The position numbers and the translations under genes are program-made. A model generated the notes under the pieces. The model worked only from the letters and a program-made list of their open reading frames with translations, searched no databases and had not been told where the DNA came from. This document shows, piece by piece, positions 5,490 to 63,987 of a DNA stretch of 64,000 nucleotides. Position 1 is the first letter of the stretch, and the number at the start of each line of letters is the position of its first letter. Origin of the DNA: Candidatus Moraniibacteriota bacterium (GTDB lineage: Bacteria > Patescibacteriota > Minisyncoccia > Moranbacterales > UBA1568); assembly GCA_016699425.1 (NCBI GenBank), contig CP064975.1, positions 1,056,942-1,120,941 on the forward strand, given 5' to 3'.

Positions 5490-5492
5490 CTG

Positions 5493-5564
5493 AGCGGGTA
5501 ACGGGAGTCGAACCCGTATCTTGACCTTGGCAAGGTCACATAATAGCCGCTATACGATACCCGC
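5493..5564 (-). tRNA. tRNA-Gly (anticodon GCC)
   Basis: The reverse complement folds as GCGGGTA acceptor, anticodon stem-loop GACC-TTGCCAA-GGTC, GGGTTCGACTCCC T-arm and TACCCGC acceptor 3' strand. Confidence 0.85.
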
Positions 5565-5642
5565 CTACGGCGGGCAGGCCCGCTTTGGCTTTTTTCTGTC
5601 TCACGGACTACTCTAACGCAAAACCTGGCACTCGACAACCTG

Positions 5643-5715
5643 TGGGACTGGATGGATTCGAACCATCGACCAAGCGGTTATGAGCCGCCTGCTCTAACCG
5701 CTGAGCTACAGTCCC
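5643..5715 (-). tRNA. tRNA-Met (anticodon CAT), elongator type; could instead be tRNA-Ile2
   Basis: GGGACTG-TA-GCTCAGCGGTTAGAGC; anticodon loop CTCATAA; T-arm GATGGTTCGAATCCATC; acceptor CAGTCCC-A. The anticodon stem lacks the three G-C pairs of an initiator tRNA. Confidence 0.8.
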
Positions 5716-5741
5716 AGGCGGGAGAATGGGATGAAACCCGG

Positions 5742-5813
5742 TGCCGGGGGGCAGAATTGAACTGCCGACGCAAGGATTTTCAGTCCTTCGCTCTACCACT
5801 GAGCTACCCCGGC
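5742..5813 (-). tRNA. tRNA-Phe (anticodon GAA)
   Basis: GCCGGGG-TA-GCTCAGTGGTAGAGC; anticodon loop CTGAAAA; T-arm GGCAGTTCAATTCTGCC; acceptor CCCCGGC-A. Confidence 0.85.
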
Positions 5814-5882
5814 GAAACATAACTATTATCCCGGAACTACCGAAAAAAGCAATCTTTTTTGCTCTGACTGCCGGCTTTCCGG

Positions 5883-5952
5883 TGGTGGGCAGTAGAGGAC
5901 ACTCGAACCTGTGACCCCCTCGGCTCGCCACGTACCAAAATGACTTGCCTGT
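5883..5952 (-). pseudogene. tRNA-like 3' fragment (degenerate T-arm, acceptor 3' strand ACTGCCC-A-CCA)
   Basis: Reverse complement ends ...ACAGG-TTCGAGTGT-CCTCT-ACTGCCC-A-CCA. There is no anticodon arm. It shares a TTTGGTACG-GGCG-GAGCC block with the 5' fragment at 6044-6114. Confidence 0.5.
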
Positions 5953-6025
5953 GGACGATGCTGGACTCGAACCAGCGGCCCTCTCGGTGTAAACGAGATG
6001 CTCTAACCAACTGAGCTAATCGTCC
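5953..6025 (-). tRNA. tRNA-Val (anticodon TAC)
   Basis: GGACGAT-TA-GCTCAGTTGGTTAGAGC; anticodon stem-loop TCTCG-TTTACAC-CGAGA; T-arm GCTGGTTCGAGTCCAGC; acceptor ATCGTCC-A. Confidence 0.85.
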
Positions 6026-6043
6026 GATTTTAGTACGGGGTGA

Positions 6044-6114
6044 ATAAGCGAGGGCTCCCCGCCCGTACCAAACGGTACGTTCGGGCGGGTAACCAACTGA
6101 GCTAACTGCCCGTC
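6044..6114 (-). pseudogene. tRNA-like 5' fragment (GGGCAGT-TA-GCTC-AGTTGGTTA) with a 32-nt hairpin inserted in the D-loop and no anticodon arm
   Basis: Acceptor 5' strand GGGCAGT is complementary to the ACTGCCC of the 3' fragment at 5883-5952. The inserted hairpin is CCCGCCCGAACGTACC-GTTT-GGTACGGGCGGG. Confidence 0.5.
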
Positions 6115-6180
6115 TCACTATCGTACCGAGGGTCTTCCAAAAAAGAAAGCTGGTCAACCAAGTACCAGCCTTCTTCCATT

Positions 6181-6250
6181 GTGCCCAAGAGAGGACTCGG
6201 TCACGAATAATTTCCAAGGAAATTTTCTCGACCCCACCTCGCGGTCTGCT
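6181..6250 (-). pseudogene. duplicated tRNA-Leu 3' end (19 nt, 6181-6199) followed by a hairpin-bearing insert
   Basis: GTGCCCAAGAGAGGACTCG is identical to 6337-6355 (the 3' end of the intact tRNA-Leu). The adjoining sequence has an AATTTCC/GGAAATT hairpin where the T-loop would be. Confidence 0.6.
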
Positions 6251-6337
6251 TTTGCAGACATCGCTCCGGTTTTCTCCTCCTCACACAAGCCAAGCAGTTG
6301 GCTTGTTCCTTGTTCTCAAACTCACTCCGTTCCTTTG

Positions 6338-6421
6338 TGCCCAAGAGAGGACTCGAACCTCCAATCCCTTGCGGGAACTAGCACCTCAAGCTAGCGCGTA
6401 TACCAATTCCGCCACCTGGGC
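6338..6421 (-). tRNA. tRNA-Leu (anticodon GAG), long variable arm
   Basis: GCCCAGG-TG-GCGG-AATTGGTAT-ACGC; anticodon stem-loop CTAGC-TTGAGGT-GCTAG; variable arm TTCCCGCAAGGGAT; T-arm TGGAGGTTCGAGTCCTCT; acceptor CTTGGGC-A. Confidence 0.85.
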
Positions 6422-37122: not shown

Positions 37123-37908
37123 CTAGTTAGTTTCTTGAGTTTCGAGCGGCTTCGAGATCTGCCAGAGTATTTGGAATACAGTCCGAAGTGAGGCAGCATA
37201 GCTCGGGCTGGAGAACTGGAAAAAGAAGTCTTCTTTTTGGGCGGACCAAAAAAGGACGTTGTCGTCGACGATGGTATACATCACCCCCCAGTCTATGGAA
37301 GCGGGTAATACGCGAACAGTACGATTGTATCGGATGTTCCCAGTCTCGCTGTAGTCCTTATTTCTTTGTAATGTCGGCCTATCAGAGGAGGGGAACAGGG
37401 CTTCGACATGGATATTCTTGGCAACGCGGGCTTCCCAGAGTCGGCGGAGGTCGCGTTCGGTGAAGAGCGCGTAAAGCAGTTCGTGGTTACCCAGGGTGAG
37501 CACCGTCTTTCCCTTCGATTCCAAAATGAGATCGGCGAGTTTCTTGGCACCCTCCCTCCCAGCATAGAGCCGGACCGGATTGCGCAGCACGTCACCCTTT
37601 TTAATCGAGGCAAGATCCTCGACAAGCTCACAGGCCACCAGTTCTTTCTGTTTGATCAGGGCTTGTAAGCGCTCGGGAGCCGTGGCAGCAAGTCGCTTCT
37701 TTGCTCCCTTCACTACGGTTTCAATAAGCCCGAGGCTTTCCAGAGTCACGGCGTTTTCATAGATGGTCGGGCGCTGAATGTGAGTATCACGGAAGATATC
37801 CAGGACGCTGCAGATCCCATGTTTTTGGATCGATATATAAATCTGACCCTGCTTTTCGGTGAGCCCGAGAGCCATCAATTTCTCGAGCATTTGTGCGTCC
37901 TTTGTCAT
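37123..37908 (-). CDS. TrmB-like wHTH transcriptional regulator (paralogue 1 of 4)
   Basis: N-terminal LxxLGLTEKQGQIYISIQKHG winged-helix region like the other three paralogues. C-terminal TrmB-like effector domain. Confidence 0.65.
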   Translation of the reverse strand: MTKDAQMLEKLMALGLTEKQGQIYISIQKHGICSVLDIFRDTHIQRPTIYENAVTLESLGLIETVVKGAKKRLAATAPERLQALIKQKELVACELVEDLASIKKGDVLRNPVRLYAGREGAKKLADLILESKGKTVLTLGNHELLYALFTERDLRRLWEARVAKNIHVEALFPSSDRPTLQRNKDYSETGNIRYNRTVRVLPASIDWGVMYTIVDDNVLFWSAQKEDFFFQFSSPSYAASLRTVFQILWQISKPLETQETN

Positions 37909-39582: not shown

Positions 39583-40398
39583 TCATTTTCCTTGGGAGAG
39601 CAATTCATGCTGCGCAAGCACTTCTTTAAGTGATAGCGTAAGACTTGATTCCCAGACTAAATCGAATATTTGCCGTAGTGTTGAAGCAAATTCTTTACTC
39701 TCTACGATGACGGATTGCGTCGCACCGATCAGGTTGATGCAGACAAAATCGTCCGTCCCACACACGGTGACATTGCCGCTGAACTTATCCAGTGGAAAGA
39801 AACGAACATTTTTGAAATGCCCGTCACCGAATTCGTCAAAGAGCTGGTGCATGGAGTCATCCCAGGTTGTGATGCCGCGAAGCGCGATCCCCCGCTTCGA
39901 GAAGTCCGCATTCCATTCCATGAAGAGGTTGTATAGCTCACTGCTGGCCTGTTTTGCGCTACCAAAGAAGCCAAACACCTCTTTCCCGCTCAATTCATCG
40001 GCGCGGTACCAGAGTGCCTGTCGCATGCCGGCGACACCATCATAGTGCATCGTGCGTACCTTGCTGATGTCGAGGCGTTTGTAGAGCGCTTTCAGATCAG
40101 GCAATATGAGTTCTGCGGCGAGGAGCTTCCGGCGAGCTTCTGAGAAGAATTCTTCCGGTGGGCGCGCCGCAAACAACTGCCCACGCTCACGAGGAATCTC
40201 TACTACCAGGCCTTTTTCGATCAGTTGTCCGAGTATGACGTAAGTAGTCGGCTTCTTTAGGCCTGATTTTCCAGCGATGGCATAGGCCGAAGCGCGCCCG
40301 GCTTCCAGAAGGGCGACATAGACCCGAGCCTCCTTTTCATTGAGTCCGAGCAGCATCAATTTCTTCACAATTTCATCCATGACCCGAGCATAACGCAA
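39583..40398 (-). CDS. TrmB-like wHTH transcriptional regulator (paralogue 2)
   Basis: LMLLGLNEKEARVYVALLEAGRASAYAIAGKSGLKKPTTYVILGQLIEKGLV winged helix. Confidence 0.65.
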   Translation of the reverse strand: MRYARVMDEIVKKLMLLGLNEKEARVYVALLEAGRASAYAIAGKSGLKKPTTYVILGQLIEKGLVVEIPRERGQLFAARPPEEFFSEARRKLLAAELILPDLKALYKRLDISKVRTMHYDGVAGMRQALWYRADELSGKEVFGFFGSAKQASSELYNLFMEWNADFSKRGIALRGITTWDDSMHQLFDEFGDGHFKNVRFFPLDKFSGNVTVCGTDDFVCINLIGATQSVIVESKEFASTLRQIFDLVWESSLTLSLKEVLAQHELLSQGK

Positions 40399-51705: not shown

Positions 51706-52677
51706 TTAATCCGCCACAACTTCGACGAATTCGTCATCGCCGACAGAGGCCGGGGGTGGTGCCACCTTGCGTACCCGCTTCACCCCTTGGGGGGCGGGTT
51801 GTTGTGCGGTGATGGTGCGCTGGAATGCAGCGCGTACCACTACCATCTCAGGATGCACGACACGGATGCGCCGTTCCCGGATTTCCCGAAGCGGGAATTC
51901 CCGCTTCAGTGGGCCCTCGTTGAGGAGGAGTCGCCGCCGGCCTTCGTCGACGGTCTTCTCCCACCAGCCGTATTGACGGCCGGTGAAGGTGCGGCTGGTC
52001 TGGTAGGACCAGCCGGCCAGGGCCGGGTCGAGTCCGACATCGCCCGGGCCCACATAGTGGGCGTTGGACGACCCGGCGAGCTGCCAGATTCCTCCCGCGT
52101 CCTTGCGGACGATGCCTTCGGGGAGGGAAAACTTCCCCTCCCCGATATCGCGCGCGAAGAGGGCGCGCGACGTCCAGGTGACCCAGTGGTCCCCTTCGGT
52201 CCAACCGAGCCCGAGGGACTCGGCTGGGAGGAGCGTGCCTGCCGAATCAGGCAGGTCGTCGATGACGGCCTCGACCCACCGGGCCGAGACTTCCTCGCGG
52301 ACTGGCAGGGCCAGTCCGGCGAAGTAGCGGGGCGTCTGCCCCGCCAGCTCGACCTTGACCACCCAGAGGTGGTCTCCGGATAGGTGCCCATCCTCCAGAT
52401 GGAGAACAGACACCACCTCACCGCTCTCAACCGCAAATGCGGCCGATGCGGCGAAGCAGAAGTAGGCATGACGCTGGGGCACGGGTGCTCCGTCACCACG
52501 CCCATATCGACCGGACCCCGTGACGCCCCCATAGGGGAGGTGCTCGGGGGGCGCGAACGCCCGGACGGTTTCTTCACGTACTATTTGCTGGAGTTTCATC
52601 TCCAAGCTCCTCCTCACACGCAAAGCCCGGCGTGCAGAGATAATTGATATGGTGCGGGTACACCGGAACTCTATCAA
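51706..52677 (-). CDS. hypothetical Gly/Trp-rich protein (up to 323 aa; start probably the internal MKLQQIV)
   Basis: Long ORF with high GC third positions. No recognised motif. Confidence 0.45.
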   Translation of the reverse strand: MIEFRCTRTISIISARRALRVRRSLEMKLQQIVREETVRAFAPPEHLPYGGVTGSGRYGRGDGAPVPQRHAYFCFAASAAFAVESGEVVSVLHLEDGHLSGDHLWVVKVELAGQTPRYFAGLALPVREEVSARWVEAVIDDLPDSAGTLLPAESLGLGWTEGDHWVTWTSRALFARDIGEGKFSLPEGIVRKDAGGIWQLAGSSNAHYVGPGDVGLDPALAGWSYQTSRTFTGRQYGWWEKTVDEGRRRLLLNEGPLKREFPLREIRERRIRVVHPEMVVVRAAFQRTITAQQPAPQGVKRVRKVAPPPASVGDDEFVEVVAD

Positions 52678-52854
52678 CCCACACCTACTCGTGAGATCTT
52701 CTCACTTTCGCTACAGGCTGAATGAAGTCCAGCACCAAAACCAATTGGTGCTGGATGAATGAGGAAGCAAGCGACCAAGCAAGCTCCTCATCCAAAACCA
52801 TGTGTTTATTCGCGCTGATATACGCTGGTCAAACACACAAAACCGTTTAAGAAC

Positions 52855-54288
52855 TCAGAACCCGAGAGTAGCGACCTTTTGGGCCACTAACTTCAGGGTG
52901 TTTGCCACCCGGACCTCGCCCAAGTACGGGAGAAGCCGTGATGCCGGAACGAAACGGCGCGAGGTTGAAACCCCGATGCGCCGCATGAACTCCCACGTCC
53001 CCTCAGCGCAGTTACCTGCGTCTCGGGAATCCTGGAAGTACACGATGGGGCAGAACCCCACCGGCTGGAGTCGGGAGACAAACTGCTTGTTCTCCCTCTC
53101 CAACTTCTTCTGCTTCTGCCACGCATCGAGCGCGGCACCGACTGCGGCCTCACGATCTGCGAGTGACTTGTGAGTCACTGTGTCGTACCAACCTCCGGTA
53201 TGGTGATACGACCGGCCGAAGCCAGTCACCAACCACACCACCTCAACGAACTCGCGTCCGCTGGTTTCGGTGAGCCGATACCCGGCTGAAGCCGAGATAC
53301 CGTGTCGCACCGCGTTGTCGCTTGTGGGGTCGAGGTACATCTCGACCCCGTCCGTCTTGTCACGGACGAGCCGTCCCGATGCCAACAGGGCATCGCGCAG
53401 GCAAGTAAACTCGCCCGCGTTCACCCGCTCCACTGCCCAGCGGAGTACTTCTCGCGGGGCGGGTTTGAACAAGGTGAGCCCGCGCGCCGCGATGAGGACA
53501 TCGCGGCTTTTGCAGTTGTGGAAGTCCTCTCCAGAGATACCGAAGAGGACCTGCTGGACTATATTGGCCGCGGTGGCCATACCCGCCTTGCGCGGGCACA
53601 GCCGGTTGTACGGGACGCAAGACCAGCGTCCCTTGAAGTGAATACCAAACCCCCGCAGGAAGCGGTTGGTCTGGTAGGCTACCTTTCTCAGGTAGCGATC
53701 CGCTCCGCCGGGCGACGGGTGTCGCTCGACGAAGTCCCAGAGATTCACCACGTTGTGCGGGGAGTGAAACATCCCGCACTGGGTGGCTCTGATGAATTCC
53801 ACGAGCGTCGGGAATGCCGACGCCGCGCGGAGCCACCCTGCCATCCGGAGGAACTGCTCGGTCGAAGCCTCCAGACGTCGAGCCCGGTAAGCTTTCTCGC
53901 TTTCCCCCTCTTTCCACTCGACGTGGGAGGAGGAATTGTTCTGGAGATTATACGGGATGACCCGCGTGGGGCCATACTTCGGCCAGTTACGCCGGTCCCA
54001 TTCCGATTGGAACCAGTTTTCTTTCCACTCCTCGGTCAGGATGCCAACCGAGATTTCAAAGTCAATCGCCGCGCGGGCGACGCGCTTTTGAAGCCCACCG
54101 AAACTCCAGGGGCGCTTGCCCCTGAGGGCGACAGCGCCCTCGTATTTGACCTCTTCCCGCCACGAGGTGGCGGTTTGGACTTCTTCTTCGCCCCGGAGAG
54201 CGTTGAGGGAGTCTTGCTTCCTTACAAATTCCTTGGCCATGATGGCCTCCTTTTTGTGAGCGACGGTTGATGAAAGGCGGATCCGCAT
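52855..54288 (-). CDS. hypothetical protein (477 aa), Trp/Arg-rich
   Basis: Longest ORF of the GC-rich segment. Start near MAKEFVRKQ. No motif recognised with confidence. Confidence 0.5.
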   Translation of the reverse strand: MRIRLSSTVAHKKEAIMAKEFVRKQDSLNALRGEEEVQTATSWREEVKYEGAVALRGKRPWSFGGLQKRVARAAIDFEISVGILTEEWKENWFQSEWDRRNWPKYGPTRVIPYNLQNNSSSHVEWKEGESEKAYRARRLEASTEQFLRMAGWLRAASAFPTLVEFIRATQCGMFHSPHNVVNLWDFVERHPSPGGADRYLRKVAYQTNRFLRGFGIHFKGRWSCVPYNRLCPRKAGMATAANIVQQVLFGISGEDFHNCKSRDVLIAARGLTLFKPAPREVLRWAVERVNAGEFTCLRDALLASGRLVRDKTDGVEMYLDPTSDNAVRHGISASAGYRLTETSGREFVEVVWLVTGFGRSYHHTGGWYDTVTHKSLADREAAVGAALDAWQKQKKLERENKQFVSRLQPVGFCPIVYFQDSRDAGNCAEGTWEFMRRIGVSTSRRFVPASRLLPYLGEVRVANTLKLVAQKVATLGF

Positions 54289-54808: not shown

Positions 54809-55559
54809 GGCCTCCTTCCCACACGCAATGCCCGGCGTATTGGATAGATGAATGATGGTGCGGGTACACCAGTTCTCAGAAAGCTTGATGACAAAAACCA
54901 TCCAGCTTCCAATTGAACAAGTTGTTAAGGTTCTCCTTGAACGGGGCGTGGCTCGCTTCTGCACACTTTCGGCGTGTCCGTTTCCTCCGTTGCTTTCCAA
55001 GGACCGTTATGCCTACGAGGCTATCAATTGATCGCCTCATAGGCATTCACTCCTTGCGAGTCAGGGTAGTATTCGGATCGACGCGTCGGGGCTACCGTCT
55101 CTCGTCCGCTTTGCAGCGCACTGGTAGTGGACCGACACTTTGATCACAGACCGCTCAGAATATGGTTAGTATTCCGCCTTGGCAGCCGAGTGAAGGGCTG
55201 CTAGATGTGACTCGTTTGTCTCTCTCCGCGTTGGGAGTATGAAATGTACTGTATCTCTCTCGAAGCTATCTTTTGTGGCTTCCGAGAAAGAGGATGGGGG
55301 AGAATCTCGCGAAACTCGAGGGTCTCGAGGTCCCCGCCTGCGACGCTGTTGCGTAGCACTTCGGGCAGGTCTCTCTACTCTCCCGAGTGTTGTCGGTCGA
55401 GCAGGATTCGCGTCACCGTTCTCCCGCATGTCTCTCTCTAAGAACGCTGATCGGTAAGGTACTAAGGTGGCTGTCTCACGGCCGGTCCCCGTCTACATCG
55501 CCTCGCGAAGTATGCCGGGCAGGTCTCTCGTCTCTCTTTTTCTATTGAAGTCACAGTAT

Positions 55560-55690
55560 AGCACCGTTTTACAACAGTGTCAATGATACGTATCAGAAAT
55601 ATGAAAAAAAGCTTATATAATATAAAAAATATGCATAAATAAGCATATAATATGTCACAATATATTGACAATATATAAAATGAGGAGTAG
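55560..55690. promoter_or_regulatory. AT-rich leader/promoter of TrmB paralogue 3
   Basis: AATATGCATAAATAA and ATATTGACA motifs are shared with the other TrmB leaders. Confidence 0.45.
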
Positions 55691-56489
55691 AATGAAAGGA
55701 AATAAGATGAAATATATGGAGCTTCTCTACACAGAAAATCTGAAGCAGGTTGGACTGTCCGAGGCGCAAGCCCTCGTATTTGAGGCTCTATTAAAGGAAA
55801 AAGAGATAAAGGCAGGGAAGCTCGCCAAGTACCTGCCTTTGAAGCGGGGTTTGATTTACAAATCACTCGACGATCTGGTCGCTCTGGGGCTGACCGAAAA
55901 GCAAGAAGCCCCCGGGAAAGTCGCACTCTACCGGGCGAAGCACCCGACCGCACTCCGGTCCGTCGTGGAGACAAAAGAGCGGGCGATCCGGGATGCCGAA
56001 CGAGCGATCGAGGGGCTCTTGCCGGTGTTGTCATCGGATTTCAATCTCCACTCGAGCCAGCCGGGAGTGCTCGTCTATGAGGGGGAGGTGGGAGTGGAGA
56101 AGGTGCTCGACGATTCACTTCAAGCCAAGGAAGTGATCTATTCCTATGTCGATGTGGAAGCGGTGGAGAAGAATATCGGCGAAATCAATGCTCGCTATAT
56201 GCGGAAGCGGGAGAAGCTCGATATTTATAAGAAGCTGCTCGTCCCAGATACGCCGTTTATTCGCAGTCTCTACACCGAAGAAAGAAGCCTCGTGACCGAA
56301 GTCCGGGCCATTCCCATGAGTGCGACGCCCTTCGAGGTATCGATGCAGATTTACGATGGCAAGGTCTCGTACCTGACACTCGCGCATGACCGCAAGCTCG
56401 GTGTCATCATCGAAAACCCCGCGATCTATCAGATGCACAAGTATCTCTTCGAGACGCTCTACGATCGAGCAGAAGTCCTGGCCCGCTAG
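55665..56489 (+). CDS. TrmB-like wHTH transcriptional regulator (paralogue 3)
   Basis: LSEAQALVFEALLKEKEIKAGKLAKYLPLKRGLIYKSLDDLVALGL winged helix. Confidence 0.65.
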   Translation: MTIYKMRSRMKGNKMKYMELLYTENLKQVGLSEAQALVFEALLKEKEIKAGKLAKYLPLKRGLIYKSLDDLVALGLTEKQEAPGKVALYRAKHPTALRSVVETKERAIRDAERAIEGLLPVLSSDFNLHSSQPGVLVYEGEVGVEKVLDDSLQAKEVIYSYVDVEAVEKNIGEINARYMRKREKLDIYKKLLVPDTPFIRSLYTEERSLVTEVRAIPMSATPFEVSMQIYDGKVSYLTLAHDRKLGVIIENPAIYQMHKYLFETLYDRAEVLAR

Positions 56490-59038
56490 GCAGTGGCTGC
56501 TTCTGTGGAGCGCTGAGCCTTCTTAGCTTGCGGACTCACGGGCATGGGTTCGTACACCAGGTACCACTTTTTCGTCTGAGTATCCCTGAAGTAGCGCGTC
56601 AGGACGAATCCTTCATTGCAGCGAGCAAAGGAGTGTTCCTGGGGATTGGAGACGACTTCGACTTTCGCAGAGCCGATTTTCCCCAGTGGAGCCAGCTTCA
56701 CGATCTCTTCTTGAGTCATCGCTTTGGTCTTGAAATACTGCTCATTCCGTCGATCATCCCGGACGATGTCGAGGATGAGGTCACCTTTATCGTCCCACGA
56801 ACGCACCCCGACAAAGCCGTTTTCGATGTAGCGGGCACTCACCGACTTCTCTGCGACGCAGTCAGCACCGAGGATATTCTCTCGCGCCTCTCGCTTGAAC
56901 GCCTCATCGATCATCGCCTCACCGATGTACGCTTTCTGAAAGCGAGGATCGAGGGTGACGGCGGAGATATATTTTTGACCGGGCTGGTCCTCAGTAAAGC
57001 ACAGGGAGCCAACGATCTCGCCTTTGTGTCGGAGGAGGGAAAAGGTGCTTTGCTCATCTTGAATGTGATTGTCAAATTCCGTAAGTAGTCTCTCCCGGGT
57101 CTCGGTTGGGTAGCCTGTCATGCTGTCGGCGTAGAGGGAGCGCATGTGGGCTGCTTCGAGAGGAGAGAGCTTGCGGCCGGAAACGGTAGGACACTCGGAA
57201 CTCTGAAAATCTTCTAGTGAAACTTTTGTTCCTTCTTCTTTCAAAGATTTAAAAGTATTGAGGAGTAGTGTCTGAGACAAGTCAGCAGCAGAACACTCCT
57301 GTTCCACATTACGAGCAACTTTGACTCGCTCTCGTTCATAACTTGGTATCGGTAATCTGTGGTTTATGCCCATACTAGCCATACCAGTATCAGCAAAACC
57401 ATCTTCTTCTGTGTCTATATCTGCCAACATCTGAGAACCGTGTTCAATTTCTTGGATTGTTTCAAGATCTGCGATTTCGGCGTCGTACTTTAGGAGGAGA
57501 TTGTAGGCTTTCCTGATAAGCGAACCGTGAATTTTGGCAATAATCTTCTTATCGTAGTTGCCGGTGAACTCCGTGTTGAGATACATCCGGATTTGTTCAG
57601 CGTTACCGATCAATTCATAAACGTGGCGGATTAGCGGCAGGCCAATTTCACGGTGCTGGCAAACGCGTTCAATAATGTAGCTAAAATCCGGTTCGTTTTG
57701 GAAGGCCAGGTAAGAGGAGCAGATGGCCACCCGGTCATCTGGGTCATGGCGTAAAATAAACTCTTGAAATGATTCGAATCCCTGCGCATCAGTAGTGGAG
57801 AGAAAATTAAGAAAGGTAACCTGGTTCGCTGAACTGAGTTTCGCCATGGAAAAGCCAAGTTTTTCCTCGAGCGTAGATCGAATCTTTAAATCCATCAAGG
57901 AACGGTATCTGGTGATGAATGTGTCCGTGAGAATGTCTTCTGTAAGACCACTTTCCGAGAGCATTGCTCGGATTGAAGATTCTGTATAAGTTCCGTCAGC
58001 CTCTTGTTTGAATAATTCAAACATATCGTCGTTCAGATAGTCTGCTACGAACCTGTCTTGCATCAGCACTTTGACGGAATAATCATTTCCATCGGCGTCG
58101 GTACGAGAAGAAAAAGGAGGTGTATCAGCACCTCCTTTTTGTCGGTAGAGCGAATCCTCACTTAGACGTCCCTCGAAAGAAGAGAAGGGACCATGGTAGT
58201 AGTGGAAATCACCACTGTCTATTGATTCGGAAATCCGTTCGAGAACGAGTTGCTCGAAAAAAGATTTACAATCCGCTCCGATGACACCGTCAATGTACGA
58301 TGATATATGCCTCGGAAAATTATTATCACTGTACTCGAGTATGCGCCTATCAATTTCCCATCGCGGATCATCATCCCAATCGTTAATTTCTTTCGAAGAC
58401 TCGGAAATGTGAAACAAAAGATTTGTCAAAAAAATTCGATCATCGGCAGAAGCAGTCTTTGGATCAAATTGAAAATACGCATTTAACTCACGGTGGATAT
58501 CCATTTGTGATTCCGATGTAAATGTAGCGATTACTGGTTCCTCATCATACGAATCTTCATCGTCCAGTGCTGACTCGGTTTCTGATTTGTTGTTGACAAT
58601 CCACTTAATTCGCCAATAAATTTCCTGTATTAATTCGTTGAAGACCCATATTCTTCCAGAATTTTGTATTCGTGAAATGAAAGCAGCCCAGTTTTTGTCG
58701 AGGAAGGGAATTCCAAATTCAGGCAATTCGCCCGAATACCAGAACTCAGAGCTTTCTAACTCCTCGACCCTTTTCTCTATGCTGTCTATGACTTGTTCGG
58801 AGGAAAAGAGTCTCTGTTCAGTTTCTTTTTCTAATTTCAAGTCAGTATCATCCTTCCTCGTACCCTGAATAGTTTGAGGTGTTGTCTCTTCGGGAACAGG
58901 AACATTCTGATGGATTGTTTCTTTTTTCGAGAGATTGGATTCGGAGTGCATATCGATCTGACTATGAAGGCCTTTACTGCCACCTCGCTTGATCTTGTGT
59001 TCGAGCAATGTTGTTGTCAATCGCAGCAACGCGTACAA
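56486..59038 (-). CDS. giant paralogue A (up to 850 aa): divergent N-terminal region + conserved ~330-aa C-terminal module with GNAT-like signature
   Basis: The C-terminal 330 aa are ~75% identical to the C-terminus of the 1166-aa neighbour. RHKGEIVGSLCFTE...RFQKAYIGEAMIDEAF...SVSARYIENGFVGV resembles GNAT motifs A and B. Confidence 0.6.
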   Translation of the reverse strand: MYALLRLTTTLLEHKIKRGGSKGLHSQIDMHSESNLSKKETIHQNVPVPEETTPQTIQGTRKDDTDLKLEKETEQRLFSSEQVIDSIEKRVEELESSEFWYSGELPEFGIPFLDKNWAAFISRIQNSGRIWVFNELIQEIYWRIKWIVNNKSETESALDDEDSYDEEPVIATFTSESQMDIHRELNAYFQFDPKTASADDRIFLTNLLFHISESSKEINDWDDDPRWEIDRRILEYSDNNFPRHISSYIDGVIGADCKSFFEQLVLERISESIDSGDFHYYHGPFSSFEGRLSEDSLYRQKGGADTPPFSSRTDADGNDYSVKVLMQDRFVADYLNDDMFELFKQEADGTYTESSIRAMLSESGLTEDILTDTFITRYRSLMDLKIRSTLEEKLGFSMAKLSSANQVTFLNFLSTTDAQGFESFQEFILRHDPDDRVAICSSYLAFQNEPDFSYIIERVCQHREIGLPLIRHVYELIGNAEQIRMYLNTEFTGNYDKKIIAKIHGSLIRKAYNLLLKYDAEIADLETIQEIEHGSQMLADIDTEEDGFADTGMASMGINHRLPIPSYERERVKVARNVEQECSAADLSQTLLLNTFKSLKEEGTKVSLEDFQSSECPTVSGRKLSPLEAAHMRSLYADSMTGYPTETRERLLTEFDNHIQDEQSTFSLLRHKGEIVGSLCFTEDQPGQKYISAVTLDPRFQKAYIGEAMIDEAFKREARENILGADCVAEKSVSARYIENGFVGVRSWDDKGDLILDIVRDDRRNEQYFKTKAMTQEEIVKLAPLGKIGSAKVEVVSNPQEHSFARCNEGFVLTRYFRDTQTKKWYLVYEPMPVSPQAKKAQRSTEAATA

Positions 59039-59053
59039 GTTCGTATTACTTGT

Positions 59054-62000
59054 TTATGCTGCCGCATTATTGTTCGTCGGCCGCATCTCATACACCATAT
59101 ACCACTTCTTGCTCGTCGGGTCTTTGAAATACCGCGTCAGGACAAAGCCGCTGTTGCAGGGTGCGAATGAATGTTCCTTCGGGTCCTTGGCTGTCTCTAC
59201 TATCGCTGTACCGATTTTCCCCAGCGGAGCCAGCTTCACGATCTCCTCTTGAGTCATCGCTTTGGTCTTGAAGTACTCCTCATTCCGTACGTCATCGCGG
59301 ATGATATCCAGAATCAGATCGCCCTGATCATCCCAGGTACGGACGCCGATGAAACCCTGCTCGATGTAGCGGGCGCTGACGGACTTTTGTGCCACGCAGT
59401 CTGCTCCGAGGATGCTGTCGGAAGCCTCTCGTTTGAACGCCTCATCAATCATCGCCTCACCGATGTAGGCTTTCTGGAAGCGCGGATCGAGTGTCACCGC
59501 CGAGACATATTTCTGCCCTGGAGCAGTTTCGGTGAAGCAGAGGAAGCCGACAATCTCACCTTTGTGACGGAGCGTAGTGAAGCGACTCCCTTCATCGGCG
59601 AGATGAGTATCGAAGTCTTTGGCGAGCTTCTTTTGAGTCTCGGTCGGGTAGCCTGTCATGCTCTCAAGATAGAGGGAGCGCATGCGTTTCGCTTCAGCTG
59701 GTATGAGGCCGCGGCCGGCTTCGCTGGTGATCGCATTATCTCGGAAGTCCTCGAGGGTTATTTCTTCGTCATTATCTTTCAGGGTTTTGAAAGTAGCTTT
59801 GAAGAGCTCGATGTCGGCACGGATCGCGTCGAGTCCAGCTTTCAATTTTTCGATTTCTTCCTGCTCTACTTTTCGGTACTCGTTCAACCAATACCCGTCG
59901 CTGTTTTCATCGAATGATCGATCACCAACCCCGAGCCCATCGAAAGATTCCCTTTGAGAAACCAAGTTTCTGAGTACTTGATGAGATTCGGCGAGAAGAT
60001 TGTTCGCTTTACTGATCAGGGATTGTCGGACTTGTAAGGCTGTTGTTGTATCACGTGTGTCTCCGGAGAGATCGTCGAGGATTGCTTCAACGGCGTCGGA
60101 ACTTTCCACGAGCTCCGCGTATTTCTGAAAAATAGTATCAGCTACTTCGGGAAGCTGACTCCCGATGGCGAGTATTTTTTCACCCATCTCACTCCCAAAC
60201 TCCTCCAGAGCAAGGAACGCCTTGATGCGATTGGCCCGGTGTTCTCTGCCCTCAGTCTGCTTGATGAAGTGCCCAAGCTGATCAAAACCCTCCCCGAGTT
60301 TTTTTGTCTTGAGATAGGTAATGAGGGAGAAAAACTCCCGCCGTGATATTTTGTCAAAAGTGAATCCGAGGTGTTTCTGTAGGTGGATGACTGCGTCGAA
60401 ACTTAAATTGTGCACCATGTCACGGACATCCTCCTCGGTTCGCGCAGTCTCACCGTATTCCGAGTTCATGAGGACGAGGAACTGGTTCATGTCGACAGAT
60501 TCGGCATACTGTAGTGTCTGAGTCATGTCCTTGAGGCCGTTATCGACATACCCGGACAAGGCAGAAACGAATTTGGGATCATGCGAGAGCAGGGGCGCAA
60601 TGTACTCTGAGAAGGCGACTGCTTGCTCGAAGCTGTTGGGGCAATCCTTTACGAAGCTCATAATGTCGATATCGAAGGTCTCGTACATTGTTTGCAAGTA
60701 GTATTGTTGGTTTTCAGGTAACCGGTGCCAAAAAAGAAGCATAACAGCGGCAGCGTTCTGGCTAGGGGAAAAGTTCGTGTGGTCAGAGAGGGCGTGTTTC
60801 ATACTTAAGAAATCAGCAACGAGCATCTTGTCGAAGGTCTCTTCCGTAGAATCGTCGGTCCTCAGAATATCTAGGAGACGACCAGTTGGGCTGTAGAGCC
60901 CGAGGGTATTGTGCGCCAAGTGTACGGCGGAGCTATTCAGGACGTACCTCCATTCATCGGCACCGCCTTTTCCTTCTGAGTGGGCGCGGCTGAGGAGGGG
61001 AGTGATAAGGTTGTCCTTCGTGCACTGGAGTGCGGCACTAAAGCGTCCTTTTGCGCGGAACTCTACTTCAAATAAGGCTCTGAAATAGGCTTCGTCGGTA
61101 TGGGATATGAGTTCTATCGCGCGTGACCGCGTTTCCGGATCATCGAGCATAAGCGATCGTATAAGCTCGCCTTTTTCGCTTTCTGCGAGGGTTGTGGGGG
61201 ATACGTCCAAAACATCGTCGGGCGTATATGCCATGACGAGGTTGAAGGAAAAGCCGGGGTGAACAGTATGAAGAAGCTTATCAATGGACATTGATTTCCA
61301 CTTCTCCATTTTTTCAAGAATCATGGGACTGTCTGGCTCCCCTTCGTAGTTCGTCCACATCTCTCGTAAACGCCCATGAAGTTCTTCGATGAGCCCCCAA
61401 TAGGCTTCAGAGTTTTCATGCATGAGCTGAGCTGCTGCTGCTCGGGCTTTATCAGTGTCGTAGAAAGGAGCATCGTGATCTCGTAGGAGGTTTCTACAGA
61501 AACCTATATCAACAGTCTCCAGGTTTTCAACTTCGCGCCGCCGCTCGATATATGCGGCGAGGTCAATGTACTCGGTGTCGTCTCCTGTTTCGTCCAGGAG
61601 CTTCTCGATACGTTCGAGGGGCAGGTTCACGGGAGTGGAGAGTTTGTGAACGATCTCTTTGAGAGTATTGAATGGCAAGTGCTGACTTCTCAGAGTCGCC
61701 AGTCCTTCACGGAGGACATACTCCCACCCCCTTTGCTGGATGAGTTCCTTCGCGATACGTATCCCAAGTTCGTTGTAACTGCGTGTCACTATTGCATCGA
61801 GCGCGAAATGCAGCGCTTCTTCCGGATGCGTTTCGATGACACTTTGGTAATGTTTCACTACAGCCTCCTTATCGTCGATGTGTCGATGCAGATCAAATTT
61901 ATGTGGCGAATCCTCGAACGATGTTTCCAGGCAAAACAGGTGTCGAAATCGCTGGACTGCCAAAGGGAACTCACTATGGAGCGTATCCAAAAGTGGCTCA

Positions 62001-62554
62001 ACCACATGAACCGTTTGGTGATCGAGAGACCCGGTATTTTCCGGTGGCTCATGAGGCATGCAGACACGATTCAGGCTGTATGCCGCGGCATAGAACAATG
62101 TGTCGGAATAGCGGTCTTCTGGATCGTACGCTTCAAAGATAGGGCGAAGTATCGCTTCCGACTCTGTTTCGAGCCGTTTCAGATCGTCAATACTATATGC
62201 CTTGAACGAATCTTGATAGACTTCCTCTTCTGGGTCGACAAAGTCAGCACCAAAGCCCTCGGATGAGTGCGTGAGCGCTGTTTCGCTAGCTTTGTGCGGA
62301 TAGTAAAATGCAGCGTCGTTGATTTTCATATACCCGAATTTTAACATGTGTCCAACTCGAAAACCGTCACTCTGGCTAGTGGGGAGGTGGTATCGGACCT
62401 TTGCTGGACACCGCGTCGAATGGAAAGAAAAAAGCGAGAGCGGAATACCATTCCGTCTCGCCAAGAACCTGCTCCTTTCTTTGCTGCTGCCAGGCGTAGG
62501 TTTACGCCCGGCTAATAACTTCCAATGACGCCTGGAGCCTGACAAAGTCGTCAA
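59054..62554 (-). CDS. giant paralogue B (up to 1166 aa): same conserved C-terminal module, unrelated larger N-terminal region
   Basis: See above. The true start is probably internal (MLKFGYMKIND, around 62350). Confidence 0.6.
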   Translation of the reverse strand: MTTLSGSRRHWKLLAGRKPTPGSSKERSRFLARRNGIPLSLFSFHSTRCPAKVRYHLPTSQSDGFRVGHMLKFGYMKINDAAFYYPHKASETALTHSSEGFGADFVDPEEEVYQDSFKAYSIDDLKRLETESEAILRPIFEAYDPEDRYSDTLFYAAAYSLNRVCMPHEPPENTGSLDHQTVHVVEPLLDTLHSEFPLAVQRFRHLFCLETSFEDSPHKFDLHRHIDDKEAVVKHYQSVIETHPEEALHFALDAIVTRSYNELGIRIAKELIQQRGWEYVLREGLATLRSQHLPFNTLKEIVHKLSTPVNLPLERIEKLLDETGDDTEYIDLAAYIERRREVENLETVDIGFCRNLLRDHDAPFYDTDKARAAAAQLMHENSEAYWGLIEELHGRLREMWTNYEGEPDSPMILEKMEKWKSMSIDKLLHTVHPGFSFNLVMAYTPDDVLDVSPTTLAESEKGELIRSLMLDDPETRSRAIELISHTDEAYFRALFEVEFRAKGRFSAALQCTKDNLITPLLSRAHSEGKGGADEWRYVLNSSAVHLAHNTLGLYSPTGRLLDILRTDDSTEETFDKMLVADFLSMKHALSDHTNFSPSQNAAAVMLLFWHRLPENQQYYLQTMYETFDIDIMSFVKDCPNSFEQAVAFSEYIAPLLSHDPKFVSALSGYVDNGLKDMTQTLQYAESVDMNQFLVLMNSEYGETARTEEDVRDMVHNLSFDAVIHLQKHLGFTFDKISRREFFSLITYLKTKKLGEGFDQLGHFIKQTEGREHRANRIKAFLALEEFGSEMGEKILAIGSQLPEVADTIFQKYAELVESSDAVEAILDDLSGDTRDTTTALQVRQSLISKANNLLAESHQVLRNLVSQRESFDGLGVGDRSFDENSDGYWLNEYRKVEQEEIEKLKAGLDAIRADIELFKATFKTLKDNDEEITLEDFRDNAITSEAGRGLIPAEAKRMRSLYLESMTGYPTETQKKLAKDFDTHLADEGSRFTTLRHKGEIVGFLCFTETAPGQKYVSAVTLDPRFQKAYIGEAMIDEAFKREASDSILGADCVAQKSVSARYIEQGFIGVRTWDDQGDLILDIIRDDVRNEEYFKTKAMTQEEIVKLAPLGKIGTAIVETAKDPKEHSFAPCNSGFVLTRYFKDPTSKKWYMVYEMRPTNNNAAA

Positions 62555-62867
62555 GGACCCCGCTGAGTTTTTCGAACCATTTTTCCATTACCTCAGCCGA
62601 TGGGCCATTCTCCTTGTCTCGGAAATCAAAGAATTTTTTGAACCCACCATGATACTCTCCGACGAAGACAGACAGTCGGTTATTATTGAGATTGTGCTCC
62701 AGACAGCACTCTATGCTAAACCTACTGACCACATGGACAAAACTGAACCAGAACCTACTCCGTTCTTCGGTGCCGTTCAGGTTGCCCTCCTTCACTTCTT
62801 CCACAATGAGAGAGAACCCGTTTGTTTCCATAATCTTCCTCATCTCATTCGCCGTAACTGTTGCCAT
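62502..62867 (-). CDS. hypothetical protein (121 aa) upstream of giant paralogue B
   Basis: ORF only. Confidence 0.4.
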   Translation of the reverse strand: MATVTANEMRKIMETNGFSLIVEEVKEGNLNGTEERSRFWFSFVHVVSRFSIECCLEHNLNNNRLSVFVGEYHGGFKKFFDFRDKENGPSAEVMEKWFEKLSGVLDDFVRLQASLEVISRA

Positions 62868-62959
62868 GATCTTCTCCGCCCCAAGATACCGCTCGGGAAT
62901 TCGGTTGGGCAGTCTGCCCAGATTGTTAAAGAATGTTGCTACGATTTACCGGTTTCGGT

Positions 62960-63100
62960 TCTGTATCGTAACGGTGTAGTATACTCAAAAATGCTGTAAC
63001 AGTCAACAATACAAAGACAGTAAAAGTAGTAAATATACTTTACAAAAGCCATAAAGAGAGTATACTGTATGTAGTGTTGTAAAATATTGACACAGGAAAT
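62960..63100. promoter_or_regulatory. AT-rich leader/promoter of TrmB paralogue 4
   Basis: AATATTGACA and TATACT elements. AT-rich. Confidence 0.4.
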
Positions 63101-63823
63101 ATGAGGGAAAAGCAGGCTTTGCTGGATTTTGGGCTCTCGGATTCGGAGGCGGATATCTATCTCGCCTTGTTCCGTCTGGGTGGGGCGACGGCGAGCGTGG
63201 TGGCCAAGGAAGCCGGCCTGAAGCGGACCACCGTGTACCCGATTTTGAAGTCGCTCGCGGGCAAGGGCTGCGTGCAGGTGTATTTCCGCAAGCAAAAGCG
63301 GCACTACTACGCGCAAAAGCCCGACCGGCTGGCTAGTCTGTTCGAGCAGAAACTGGAACTCTTCAAGAGTATCGTCCCGCTCTTCGAATCAGTCGAGAAA
63401 AAACGCTCGCAGGCGGAAGGGCTGCGTTTCATCGAGACCAAAGAGGAGCTCCGGCAGTTCTACATGGACATCTTGGAGGATCACAAAAGCTACCGCGTCA
63501 TCGGCAATGCGTTCACTTGGCAGAATATCGACCCCGAATTTTTCGAGCAGTATCGGGAGATGCGGGCGCGGCTAAAGATCAAGACCCGACTCCTCCTGTC
63601 GGCGGATTCCAAGGCGACGAACCCGACGAGCCCGGACCTGCTCCGCGAATGCCGGTACTTGCCCGAGAGCCATGTGTTCAAGAGCACGCTGAATATCTTC
63701 AATGACAAGATCCTCGTCATTAGTCCCGAGTCGTCATCGCTCGCGGTCGTGATCGCGGTGCCGGCGATGGTGGATATTTTCCGGTCGATGTTTGAGATTC
63801 TCTGGGAGAGTGCAGTGGAATAG
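63101..63823 (+). CDS. TrmB-like wHTH transcriptional regulator (paralogue 4)
   Basis: LSDSEADIYLALFRLGGATASVVAKEAGLKRTTVYPILKSLAGKG winged helix. Confidence 0.65.
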   Translation: MREKQALLDFGLSDSEADIYLALFRLGGATASVVAKEAGLKRTTVYPILKSLAGKGCVQVYFRKQKRHYYAQKPDRLASLFEQKLELFKSIVPLFESVEKKRSQAEGLRFIETKEELRQFYMDILEDHKSYRVIGNAFTWQNIDPEFFEQYREMRARLKIKTRLLLSADSKATNPTSPDLLRECRYLPESHVFKSTLNIFNDKILVISPESSSLAVVIAVPAMVDIFRSMFEILWESAVE

Positions 63824-63935
63824 GATCGGGAGATATCGCAGTGAGGTTGCACCGAGTTTGTACGGATGGTAGACAAAGTTTGTGTGGTATGTACTCTCAC
63901 CCGCTTAATAGCAGAAACTGAGACGGCAGACTATA

Positions 63936-63987
63936 CTCTGGATATGGAAAAGAAGCCCAAACTCTGGATATGGAAAAGAAGCCCAAA
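63936..63987. repeat. perfect 26-bp tandem duplication (CTCTGGATATGGAAAAGAAGCCCAAA x2) overlapping a putative gene start
   Basis: Two identical adjacent 26-mers, each containing an ATG GAA AAG AAG CCC AAA start. The reading frame is open to the window end. Confidence 0.7.

What the first reader, a model, noticed from the sequence alone, without database searches (positions are those of the whole stretch)
55665..63823. Tandem giant paralogues with variable N-terminal bodies and a conserved C-terminal GNAT-like module, bracketed by two TrmB-like regulators
The 850-aa and 1166-aa minus-strand proteins share ~75% identity over their last ~330 residues, and their DNA is visibly similar over 56486-57250 versus 59054-59820. 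Their N-terminal 500-800 residues are unrelated, helical and acidic, with no signal peptide. The shared module contains RHKGEIVG(F/S)LCFTE ... RFQKAYIGEAMIDEAF ... SVSARYIE(Q/N)GF(I/V)GV, which resembles acetyltransferase (GNAT) motifs A and B, followed by a ~90-aa conserved tail. A variable N-terminal region with a conserved C-terminal enzymatic module, duplicated in tandem and flanked by dedicated regulators, has no obvious counterpart among characterised systems.
Basis: partly seen in the sequence, partly recalled or inferred. Interest (0 to 1): 0.6.

Follow-up and report, generated by a model that had tools for sequence, protein, structure and literature searches.

The report
CPR multidomain GNAT paired with TrmBL2-like protein
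Two neighbouring giant genes in a candidate-phyla-radiation bacterium belong to a large, unstudied family of acetyltransferase-type enzymes that almost always sit tail-to-tail with a chromatin-protein-like DNA binder and swap their front halves between lineages; what they do is unknown.

Summary

These are not an isolated oddity. An exhaustive profile search finds 1,172 cluster representatives with the same C-terminal module. Named hosts are Moraniibacteriota, Saccharibacteria and Nomurabacteria. The architecture is a variable acidic N-body, an undescribed all-helical domain, GNAT, and a ~70-aa subdomain.

The downstream regulator (TrmB1) is a true conserved partner. It lies convergent and abutting at 10 of 10 GNAT-anchored loci. 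In the reciprocal test, a GNAT-family ORF accompanies it in 49 of 51 loci of at least 5 kb, and no other gene recurs. TrmB1 is TrmBL2-like (hhalign 93.5%). The upstream regulator (TrmB2) is not conserved.

Partner identity tracks the GNAT module, not the body. So [module + TrmB] is a stable 3' cassette that carries exchangeable 5' bodies. Paralogue B has an old body joined to this lineage's module.

The substrate and the role of the partner are inferred, not shown. I rate this a new variant of a known kind.

The parts
55707..56489 (+). TrmB1: TrmBL2-like winged-helix DNA-binding protein, the conserved convergent partner. The maximal ORF starts at the TTG at 55665. The probable start is M15 at 55707 or M18 at 55716.
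   Evidence: Pfam TrmB E 1.5e-10. Orthologues lie convergent to the GNAT gene at 10 of 10 loci. In the reciprocal scan 58 of 80 loci are paired, and 49 of 51 loci of at least 5 kb carry the GNAT family. Profile vs PDB TrmBL2 5box: E 1.6e-3 over the full length. hhalign probability 93.5%, E 2.4e-7, 218 columns. A promoter-like site at 55665-55693 overlaps the TTG, and the orthologue alignment starts near M18.
56486..57184 (-). Paralogue A, C-terminal module (ORF residues 619-850 plus stop). It comprises the GNAT domain (~618-760), a conserved alpha/beta subdomain (~761-832) and a variable end. Its stop overlaps the TrmB1 stop by 4 nt.
57185..57994 (-). Paralogue A, family-specific all-helical domain plus linker (ORF residues ~349-618).
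57995..58951 (-). Paralogue A, variable acidic N-terminal body (ORF residues 30-348), from the annotated start.
   Evidence: pI 4.43, D+E 20.6%. AF2 pLDDT is mostly below 50. The only BLAST relative among 111 N-bodies is P0024, at 25%.
59054..59722 (-). Paralogue B, C-terminal GNAT module (ORF residues 945-1166 plus stop). It is the same lineage type as A's module.
   Evidence: 73.9% aa identity to A's module; pS 0.70, dS ~2.1, dN 0.19. It is 72% identical to A but only 25-27% identical to the modules of B's own body-orthologues P0004-P0006. Pfam PF00583 21.1 bits.
59723..60484 (-). Paralogue B, helical domain plus linker (ORF residues ~691-944).
   Evidence: The family profile matches from residue 691. 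Identity is 46-51% to P0004-P0006 and ~20% to A.
60485..62329 (-). Paralogue B, acidic N-terminal body (ORF residues 76-690), from the annotated start M76.
   Evidence: P0003 is 1091 aa. The N-body is 47-51% identical to P0004-P0006 over 527-600 aa. pI 4.81.
62502..62867 (-). Small ORF (121 aa) upstream of B and co-directional with it. Membership of the unit is doubtful.
   Evidence: No Pfam, NCBIfam or PADLOC hit. No homologue in any related locus. A promoter-like site at 63006->62978 lies upstream.
63101..63823 (+). TrmB2: a TrmB-family wHTH protein, divergent from orf121-B-A. Possibly a local regulator, but not a conserved partner.
   Evidence: Pfam TrmB E 4.2e-15. Only E 1e-8 to TrmB1, and closer to window ORF 39583-40398. 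No TrmB2-like upstream gene recurs at other loci. A divergent promoter-like pair lies at 63006->62978(-) and 63039-63066(+).

Best explanation
A and B are tandem paralogues of a large, uncharacterised family of cytoplasmic multidomain GNAT acyltransferases. So far the family has been seen only in CPR/Patescibacteria.

Each protein has four parts:
- a lineage-variable acidic N-terminal body;
- a family-specific all-helical domain of ~250 aa, followed by a flexible linker;
- a canonical GNAT domain that keeps the CoA-pyrophosphate-loop glycine and the motif-B tyrosine;
- a conserved alpha/beta subdomain of ~70 aa.

The gene is almost always abutted tail-to-tail by a ~260-aa TrmBL2-like winged-helix protein. 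The [GNAT module + TrmB-like gene] behaves as a co-inherited 3' cassette. Different 5' bodies have been recombined onto it at the linker.

In this genome, an old B-type body carries the lineage's own module. This arose by an ancient gene conversion or recombination with A. Both copies have since been under purifying selection.

Inferred, not shown: the enzyme uses acetyl- or acyl-CoA to N-acylate a macromolecular substrate, probably a protein. The helical domain and N-body choose that substrate. The activity is functionally coupled to the TrmBL2-like DNA-binding protein, as its target, its regulator, or both.
For: GNAT identity:
- Pfam above the curated cutoff, and in 40 of 54 members, best E 4.8e-9.
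- AF2 pLDDT 90.
- Y737 99% and G706 98% conserved across 148 modules.

Family size and architecture:
- 1,172 representatives at E<=1e-3, 140 at E<=1e-30.
- The module is always C-terminal. N-terminal length before it runs from 16 to 909 aa. 124 of 150 also carry the helical domain. Only 2 of 150 have a hydrophobic stretch, and neither is A or B.

Taxa: Moraniibacteriota; Saccharibacteria and Nomurabacteria.

Pairing:
- 10 of 10 loci convergent, from a 129-nt gap to a 110-nt overlap.
- Reciprocal scan from TrmB: 58 of 80 loci paired, 9 with too little downstream sequence.
- Among 51 loci of at least 5 kb, GNAT is present in 49. The next most frequent gene family appears in only 8.

Partner is TrmBL2-like.

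Cassette behaviour:
- L010/L014: TrmB 87%, module 62%, helical 18%.
- L001/L013: 80 / 57 / 18.
- window/L013: 71 / 58 / 21.
- Across the family, helical and module identities correlate at only r = 0.29, with 41 + 13 strongly discordant pairs.

B mosaic: body 46-51% identical to P0004-6, module 72% identical to A but 25-27% to P0004-6. dN 0.19 against dS ~2.1.
Against: - No biochemical or expression data exist. Substrate class, acyl donor and any contact with the TrmB-like protein are inference.
- Convergent genes are not co-transcribed. The module-TrmB covariation can be explained by physical linkage alone.
- The covariation statistics rest on 60 pairs and a few close comparisons.
- Motif A is non-canonical in the window proteins (Q-K-A-Y-I-G).
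- Two Asn residues conserved in 90% of the family are S and T here.
- No fusion of a TrmB-like domain to a family member was found.
- The helical domain gave no fold hit, so nothing supports a substrate-selection role directly.
- The taxonomic claim rests on six pattern-limited genome hits.
Confidence: 0.6

Rival explanations
1. This is a small-molecule acetyltransferase acting on an antibiotic, polyamine or metabolite. The adjacent wHTH protein is simply its local transcriptional regulator, as in many MarR/GNAT pairs.
Confidence: 0.15
2. This is a conflict system. The GNAT proteins would be toxins or delivered effectors with rapidly diversifying targeting bodies. The TrmB-like protein would act as antitoxin, immunity protein or controller.
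For: Bodies and modules evolve as a mosaic. Modules diverge faster than the partner (window vs L010: module 27%, TrmB 52%). CPR bacteria are episymbionts (own knowledge).
Against: There is no PADLOC hit for the GNAT proteins. There is no match in phage, plasmid or viral-contig collections. I detected no signal peptide, TM segment or secretion domain in A or B. The genes are convergent rather than an operon. Flanks are housekeeping genes such as PolA, RuvB, YebC and RNase Y-like. Both window copies show purifying selection. Known GNAT toxins are small stand-alone proteins with RHH antitoxins (own knowledge).
Confidence: 0.1
3. The GNAT domain is catalytically inert and the proteins are structural scaffolds. 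The pairing with TrmB would be genomic hitch-hiking in compact genomes.
For: Motif A is degenerate in the window proteins, and two family-conserved Asn residues are replaced. The Pfam scores are only just above the cutoff.
Against: The motif-B Tyr (99%), the pyrophosphate-loop Gly (98%) and several tail residues are almost invariant across 148 diverse modules. dN/dS on the module is about 0.09. Adjacency is retained in 49 of 51 loci while all other neighbours vary, which is hard to reconcile with hitch-hiking.
Confidence: 0.05

Closest known systems
Multidomain bacterial protein lysine acetyltransferases (Pat/YfiQ/PatZ; cNMP- or ACT-domain-fused GNATs of actinobacteria)
   Same: A large N-terminal non-catalytic region is fused to a single C-terminal GNAT domain. 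The proteins are cytoplasmic and reach ~800-1100 aa. The N-terminal region differs between lineages while the GNAT stays constant. (The description of the known families is from my own knowledge.)
   Different: There is no NDP-forming acyl-CoA-synthetase-like, cNMP-binding or ACT domain. Pfam finds nothing recurrent upstream of the GNAT. The helical domain and the ~70-aa post-GNAT subdomain are family-specific. A conserved convergent TrmBL2-like partner is not a feature of Pat systems.
PA0115 / ElaA-type and other stand-alone GNATs (PDB 1xeb, 5z6n, 2r7h)
   Different: They are ~150-aa single-domain proteins. Sequence identity is only 10-15%. They say nothing about the substrate of this family.
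TrmBL2 (Thermococcales chromatin protein and global repressor; PDB 5box; PMC3031468)
   Same: The partner protein matches it over its full length, covering wHTH, coiled coil and C-terminal domain. It has about the same size (255-280 vs 263 aa) and lacks the sugar-binding extension of TrmB proper.
   Different: Identity is only ~22%. The partner is bacterial (CPR). Nothing is known about its DNA-binding mode or abundance. The archaeal protein has no described GNAT partner (none found).
GNAT-type toxin-antitoxin pairs (TacT/AtaT/KacT with RHH antitoxins)
   Same: A GNAT enzyme is genetically paired with a small DNA-binding protein.
   Different: Those toxins are ~170-aa proteins co-transcribed with an upstream RHH/DUF1778 antitoxin (own knowledge). 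Here the GNAT is the C-terminal end of a 700-1150-aa protein, and the partner is a convergent 260-aa wHTH protein.

Membership tests
GNAT superfamily (Pfam PF00583 Acetyltransf_1) | Sequence match to the family model above the curated threshold | tested here: met
   A scores 25.3 bits and B 21.1 bits against a cutoff of 20.7. 40 of 54 family members match, best E 4.8e-9.
GNAT superfamily (Pfam PF00583 Acetyltransf_1) | GNAT fold (mixed beta-sheet with alpha1-alpha2, beta4-alpha3-beta5-alpha4 core) | tested here: met
GNAT superfamily (Pfam PF00583 Acetyltransf_1) | Motif A pyrophosphate-binding loop Q/R-x-x-G-x-G/A after beta4 | tested here: inconclusive
   The window proteins have Q-K-A-Y-I-G. 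The last Gly is 98% conserved in the family, but the first Gly is usually replaced.
GNAT superfamily (Pfam PF00583 Acetyltransf_1) | Acyl-CoA-dependent acyl transfer | not testable with these tools
   Needs biochemistry. Indirect support only: the motif-B Tyr is conserved in 99% of modules.
Pat/YfiQ-type class I protein lysine acetyltransferases | N-terminal NDP-forming acyl-CoA synthetase-like region (CoA_binding_2 / Succ_CoA_lig / ATP-grasp_5) | tested here: not met
   No such Pfam or NCBIfam hits in A, B or 54 family members.
TrmB family (PF01978), partner protein | TrmB-type winged helix-turn-helix | tested here: met
   TrmB1 E 1.5e-10 and TrmB2 E 4.2e-15, both above the cutoff.
TrmBL2-like subgroup, partner protein | Full-length similarity to TrmBL2 (wHTH + coiled coil + C-terminal domain, ~260 aa, no sugar-binding extension) | tested here: met
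   Profile vs PDB: TrmBL2 is the top hit at E 1.6e-3, covering 18-253 of 266 against 19-261 of 263. hhalign probability 93.5%, E 2.4e-7, 218 columns. Non-specific DNA coating was not tested.
GNAT toxin-antitoxin systems (TacT/AtaT/KacT) | Small stand-alone GNAT toxin co-transcribed with an upstream RHH/DUF1778 antitoxin | tested here: not met
   The GNAT is the C-terminal module of 350-1177-aa proteins. The partner is a convergent wHTH protein. No DUF1778 hit.
Known anti-phage defence systems (PADLOC) | Match of a component to a defence-system model | tested here: not met
   No hit for A, B, orf121 or orf477. The TrmB hits cover only the generic wHTH of Csa3/CasR.
Polymorphic toxin / secreted effector loci | Conserved N-terminal trafficking region, variable C-terminal toxin, secretion signal, downstream immunity gene | tested here: not met
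   The polarity is the opposite: variable N-terminus, constant C-terminus. No signal peptide or TM segment in A or B. No association with phages, plasmids or viral contigs.

The most novel reading that the evidence does not exclude
The GNAT module and its TrmBL2-like neighbour form a CPR-wide nucleoid-modification system. The enzyme would acetylate the chromatin-like DNA-binding protein, or proteins bound with it. The exchangeable helical and acidic bodies would act as sensors or targeting adaptors. This would be a bacterial analogue of histone or Alba acetylation, with cassette-style swapping of the targeting half.
Probability: 0.12. Interest if true: 0.85.

Novelty: new variant of a known kind. 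Interest (0 to 1): 0.55.

Why it matters
CPR/Patescibacteria make up a large share of bacterial diversity. They have tiny genomes, and most of their lineage-specific genes have no known function. This two-gene unit keeps its adjacency across at least three CPR lineages while every other neighbour changes. It contains an undescribed helical domain and a chromatin-protein-like partner. That makes it a concrete, testable candidate for a CPR-specific regulatory or protein-modification pathway. The cassette behaviour (stable enzyme plus partner, exchangeable front half) is also a clean example of domain-level recombination in reduced genomes. If the pair proves to be a routine regulator-enzyme couple, the result is still useful. 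It gives a family definition, domain boundaries and a partner for more than a thousand 'hypothetical' or 'GNAT family' annotations.

Tried and rejected
- The word-indexed homologue searches found only 2, 4 and 4 hits. The exhaustive profile search was needed to see the family.
- The 29-sequence module alignment was too diverse for the genome scan, so a 10-sequence one was used. The six genome hits are therefore a lower bound limited by the search patterns.
- Cluster look-ups gave no organism names. P0003 and P0017 are not on record for contig look-up. I therefore could not tell whether P0005 and P0017 come from one genome.
- The N-terminal body of A could not be modelled (pLDDT below 50).
- PADLOC, phage, plasmid and IMG/VR searches were negative.
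- No GNAT-family member contains a TrmB-like domain.
- Charge complementarity between the acidic bodies and the partner was rejected, because the partners have pI ~5-6.
- My earlier idea that the partner tracks the body and only the module is exchanged was reversed.
- Pat/YfiQ, GNAT toxin-antitoxin and polymorphic-toxin memberships were each rejected on a tested defining feature.
- Literature searches found nothing on this family or pairing.


Full report
**1. What is in the window.**
The ORFs are as described:
- TrmB-like ORF 55665-56489(+).
- Giant ORF A, 56486-59038(-), 850 aa.
- Giant ORF B, 59054-62554(-), 1166 aa.
- A 121-aa ORF, 62502-62867(-).
- A second TrmB-like ORF, 63101-63823(+).

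The database copies of A and B start at M30 (P0001, 821 aa, 'GNAT family N-acetyltransferase') and M76 (P0003, 1091 aa, 'hypothetical protein'). Both come from a 1.22-Mb contig of a Candidatus Moraniibacteriota MAG. The neighbouring genes are housekeeping genes: YebC, RuvB, a PilB-type ATPase and a DHH protein. The window also carries five tRNAs.

**2. Checking the similarity.**
BLASTP of A against B gives E 9e-122. A codon-aware sliding window shows a sharp step at A619/B945.
- Downstream of the step, amino-acid identity is 57-90% and nucleotide identity 59-81%.
- Upstream of the step, amino-acid identity is 13-37%.

Identity is 73.9% over the last 232 residues and 59.7% over the last 330. 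The DNA repeat is real: 300 nt at 82% and 91 nt at 71%.

The ~230-250 residues before the step are still homologous. The BLAST alignment runs from A390/B725, and both proteins match the same profile there. Only the far N-bodies are unrelated.

Synonymous sites between the two modules are close to saturation (pS 0.70, dS ~2.1), while dN is 0.19. The shared module is therefore old, both copies are under purifying selection, and the duplication is not an assembly artefact.

**3. The module is a GNAT.**
- Pfam Acetyltransf_1 is just above its cutoff for both proteins. It hits 40 of 54 family members, best E 4.8e-9.
- An AlphaFold2 model of A's last 280 residues, built with a 29-sequence alignment, has pLDDT 90.1 and pTM 0.81.
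- The neighbours span small-molecule, lysine and N-terminal acetyltransferases at 8-18% identity. The fold therefore does not indicate a substrate.
- After the GNAT strands comes a conserved subdomain of ~70 residues (three short helices and three strands). It carries the nearly invariant 'LTR' and 'VFE' motifs.
- Across 148 modules, the motif-B tyrosine (Y737 in ORF-A numbering) is 99% conserved and the pyrophosphate-loop glycine G706 is 98% conserved.
- Motif A is non-canonical in the window proteins (Q-K-A-Y-I-G). Two Asn residues conserved in 90% of the family are S and T in the window's module type.

**4. A large family.**
The word-indexed searches found almost nothing. An exhaustive HMMER search of 1.84 billion cluster representatives found:
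- 1,172 proteins at E<=1e-3;
- 742 at E<=1e-10;
- 140 at E<=1e-30.

In the best 150:
- the module is always C-terminal (median 10 residues after it);
- the sequence before it is 16-909 residues long;
- 124 also match the upstream helical region;
- only two have a hydrophobic stretch, and neither is A or B;
- the pre-module part is acidic in 90% of them.

A full-length model of A is confident (pLDDT >90) from about residue 320 to 810 of P0001. That span covers the helical domain, a low-confidence linker, the GNAT and the subdomain. The N-body is not modelled.

The helical domain has no recurrent Pfam family, no PDB sequence-profile hit, and no fold hit among the listed top matches.

Named genome hits are Saccharibacteria (three), Nomurabacteria (one), an unclassified bacterium, and a 2.7-kb contig binned as Bacteroidales. 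That scan used only two peptide patterns, so it gives a lower bound.

**5. The conserved partner.**
At every locus carrying a family member, the gene is followed by a convergent orthologue of TrmB1. These loci are the window, L001-L010. Spacing runs from a 129-nt gap to a 110-nt overlap, with phmmer E values of 1e-51 to 1e-123. In L003 only a fragment remains.

For the reciprocal test I scanned metagenome contigs with an alignment of the partners and obtained 80 loci.
- 58 have a convergent family ORF within -85 to +86 nt of the partner's 3' end.
- 9 end too soon to tell.
- Of the 13 without a pair, five have less than 710 nt downstream, one has a co-directional GNAT, and one has the GNAT 5 kb away.

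By BLAST clustering of ORFs in the 51 loci of at least 5 kb, the partner is present in 51 and the GNAT family in 49. The next most frequent gene family appears in only 8. The conserved unit is therefore exactly two genes.

The partner's closest solved relative is TrmBL2, over its full length:
- profile against PDB: E 1.6e-3;
- hhalign: probability 93.5%, E 2.4e-7, 218 columns.

TrmBL2 is a chromatin protein and global repressor of Thermococcales (PMC3031468).

TrmB2, the upstream 'bracket', is only distantly related to TrmB1 (E 1e-8). It resembles two other TrmB-like genes in the window. No TrmB2-like upstream gene recurs at other loci. Its divergent promoter-like arrangement with orf121-B-A would suit a local regulator, but this is unsupported by conservation.

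**6. Mosaic evolution.**
Segment identities disagree.
- A's helical domain groups with P0002, P0012, P0013 and P0017 (46-53%).
- B's helical domain groups with P0004-P0006 (46-51%).
- A's module groups with B (72%), P0002 (66%), P0007 (68%) and P0008 (64%), but is only 28-35% identical to those of P0012, P0013 and P0017.
- B's module is 25-27% identical to those of P0004-P0006.

Family-wide, helical and module identities correlate at only r = 0.29 over 3,135 pairs. 41 pairs are 'same body, different module' and 13 are the reverse. N-bodies fall into several unrelated clusters. A's N-body is nearly an orphan, even relative to its closest relative P0002.

The partner follows the module, not the body:
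- L010 (P0005, B-type body) and L014 (P0017, A-type body): partners 87% identical, modules 62%, helical domains 18%.
- L001 and L013 (P0011): 80 / 57 / 18.
- window and L013: 71 / 58 / 21.

Spearman correlations over 60 pairs are 0.35 for partner vs module (0.39 for the partner's C-terminal half), 0.12 for partner vs helical, and -0.08 for helical vs module.

I read this as a stable 3' cassette [GNAT module + convergent TrmB-like gene]. Different 5' halves have been joined to it at the flexible linker. In the window, B is an old body carrying this lineage's module, acquired by conversion or recombination with A. The tandem arrangement itself was not seen in any of the 80 partner-anchored loci.

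Physical linkage alone could produce the module-partner covariation, so it does not prove a protein-protein interaction.

**7. Mechanism.**
Shown:
- the domain architecture;
- the GNAT fold, with the cofactor-loop glycine and motif-B tyrosine retained;
- the absence of a detectable signal peptide or TM segment in A and B;
- a near-obligate gene pairing with a TrmBL2-like protein;
- modular exchange and purifying selection.

Inferred:
- acyl-CoA-dependent N-acylation of a macromolecular, probably protein, acceptor;
- selection of that acceptor by the helical domain and N-body;
- functional coupling with the DNA-binding partner.

Alternatives considered were a regulated small-molecule acetyltransferase, a conflict or effector system, and an inert scaffold. 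The evidence against each is:
- Small-molecule enzyme: the conserved extra domains are unexplained, and the conserved partner is convergent rather than divergent.
- Conflict system: PADLOC, phage, plasmid and viral-contig searches are all negative, and the genomic context is housekeeping.
- Inert scaffold: the catalytic residues are nearly invariant.

No fusion between the two families was found, and no relevant literature.

**8. Comparison and verdict.**
The design resembles multidomain protein acetyltransferases such as Pat/YfiQ. The family fails their defining N-terminal domain test. It also fails the defining features of GNAT toxin-antitoxin pairs and of polymorphic toxins.

It is a member of the GNAT superfamily, and its partner is a member of the TrmB family (TrmBL2-like). 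The combination appears undescribed: a new helical domain, a post-GNAT subdomain, an obligate convergent TrmBL2-like partner, and cassette-style body exchange. I rate it a new variant of a known kind, of moderate interest. The main open question is what is acetylated and whether the partner is involved.

Noticed in passing
window 52001-54288 (ORF 52855-54288, minus strand): This 2-kb block has GC 0.618 against ~0.50-0.55 around it. It holds a 477-aa ORF with no Pfam, NCBIfam or PADLOC hit. A homologue (E 1.8e-46) lies at the same relative position beyond the TrmB-like gene in L001.
   Followed up: partly
window 37123-37908(-), 39583-40398(-), 55665-56489(+), 63101-63823(+): Four TrmB-family wHTH genes of 240-274 aa lie within 27 kb. 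This suggests an expansion of the regulator or NAP family in this genome.
   Followed up: partly
L012 (1-1554), compared with window 55400-56900: This is the closest TrmB1 relative (83% aa). It is collinear with the window up to about 25 codons before the stop, then diverges completely and has no GNAT downstream. The contig has low coverage (1.15x), so this could be a rearrangement or a chimeric assembly.
   Followed up: partly
window 55351-55382 and 55505-55536; palindrome 55009-55046: A 32-nt direct repeat (78% identity) and a 24-nt near-perfect palindrome lie in the 1.4-kb gene-poor stretch upstream of TrmB1. They could be operator-like sites or chance matches.
   Followed up: no
window 63928-63979: Two tandem 26-nt copies (88% identity) lie just downstream of TrmB2, at the edge of the window.
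   Followed up: no
L033 1730-4117(+); L031 414-2201(-): These are exceptions to the convergent rule. In L033 the GNAT-family gene follows the TrmB-like gene on the same strand. In L031 it lies about 5 kb away.
   Followed up: no
alignment A3 (one unidentified member of 54): One family member has a Crp-like wHTH hit (HTH_Crp_2, E 4.8e-5) and another a HEAT_2 hit in its N-terminal region. I did not identify which proteins these are. No member matches the TrmB-partner profile.
   Followed up: partly
window 5492-6421: A cluster of five tRNA genes (Gly-GCC, Met-CAT, Phe-GAA, Val-TAC, Leu-GAG) lies on the minus strand.
   Followed up: no
L001 648-3260 and L003 5331-8168: DNA polymerase I lies next to, or two genes from, the GNAT gene in two related loci that carry different body types. 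The window ends before the equivalent position could be seen.
   Followed up: no
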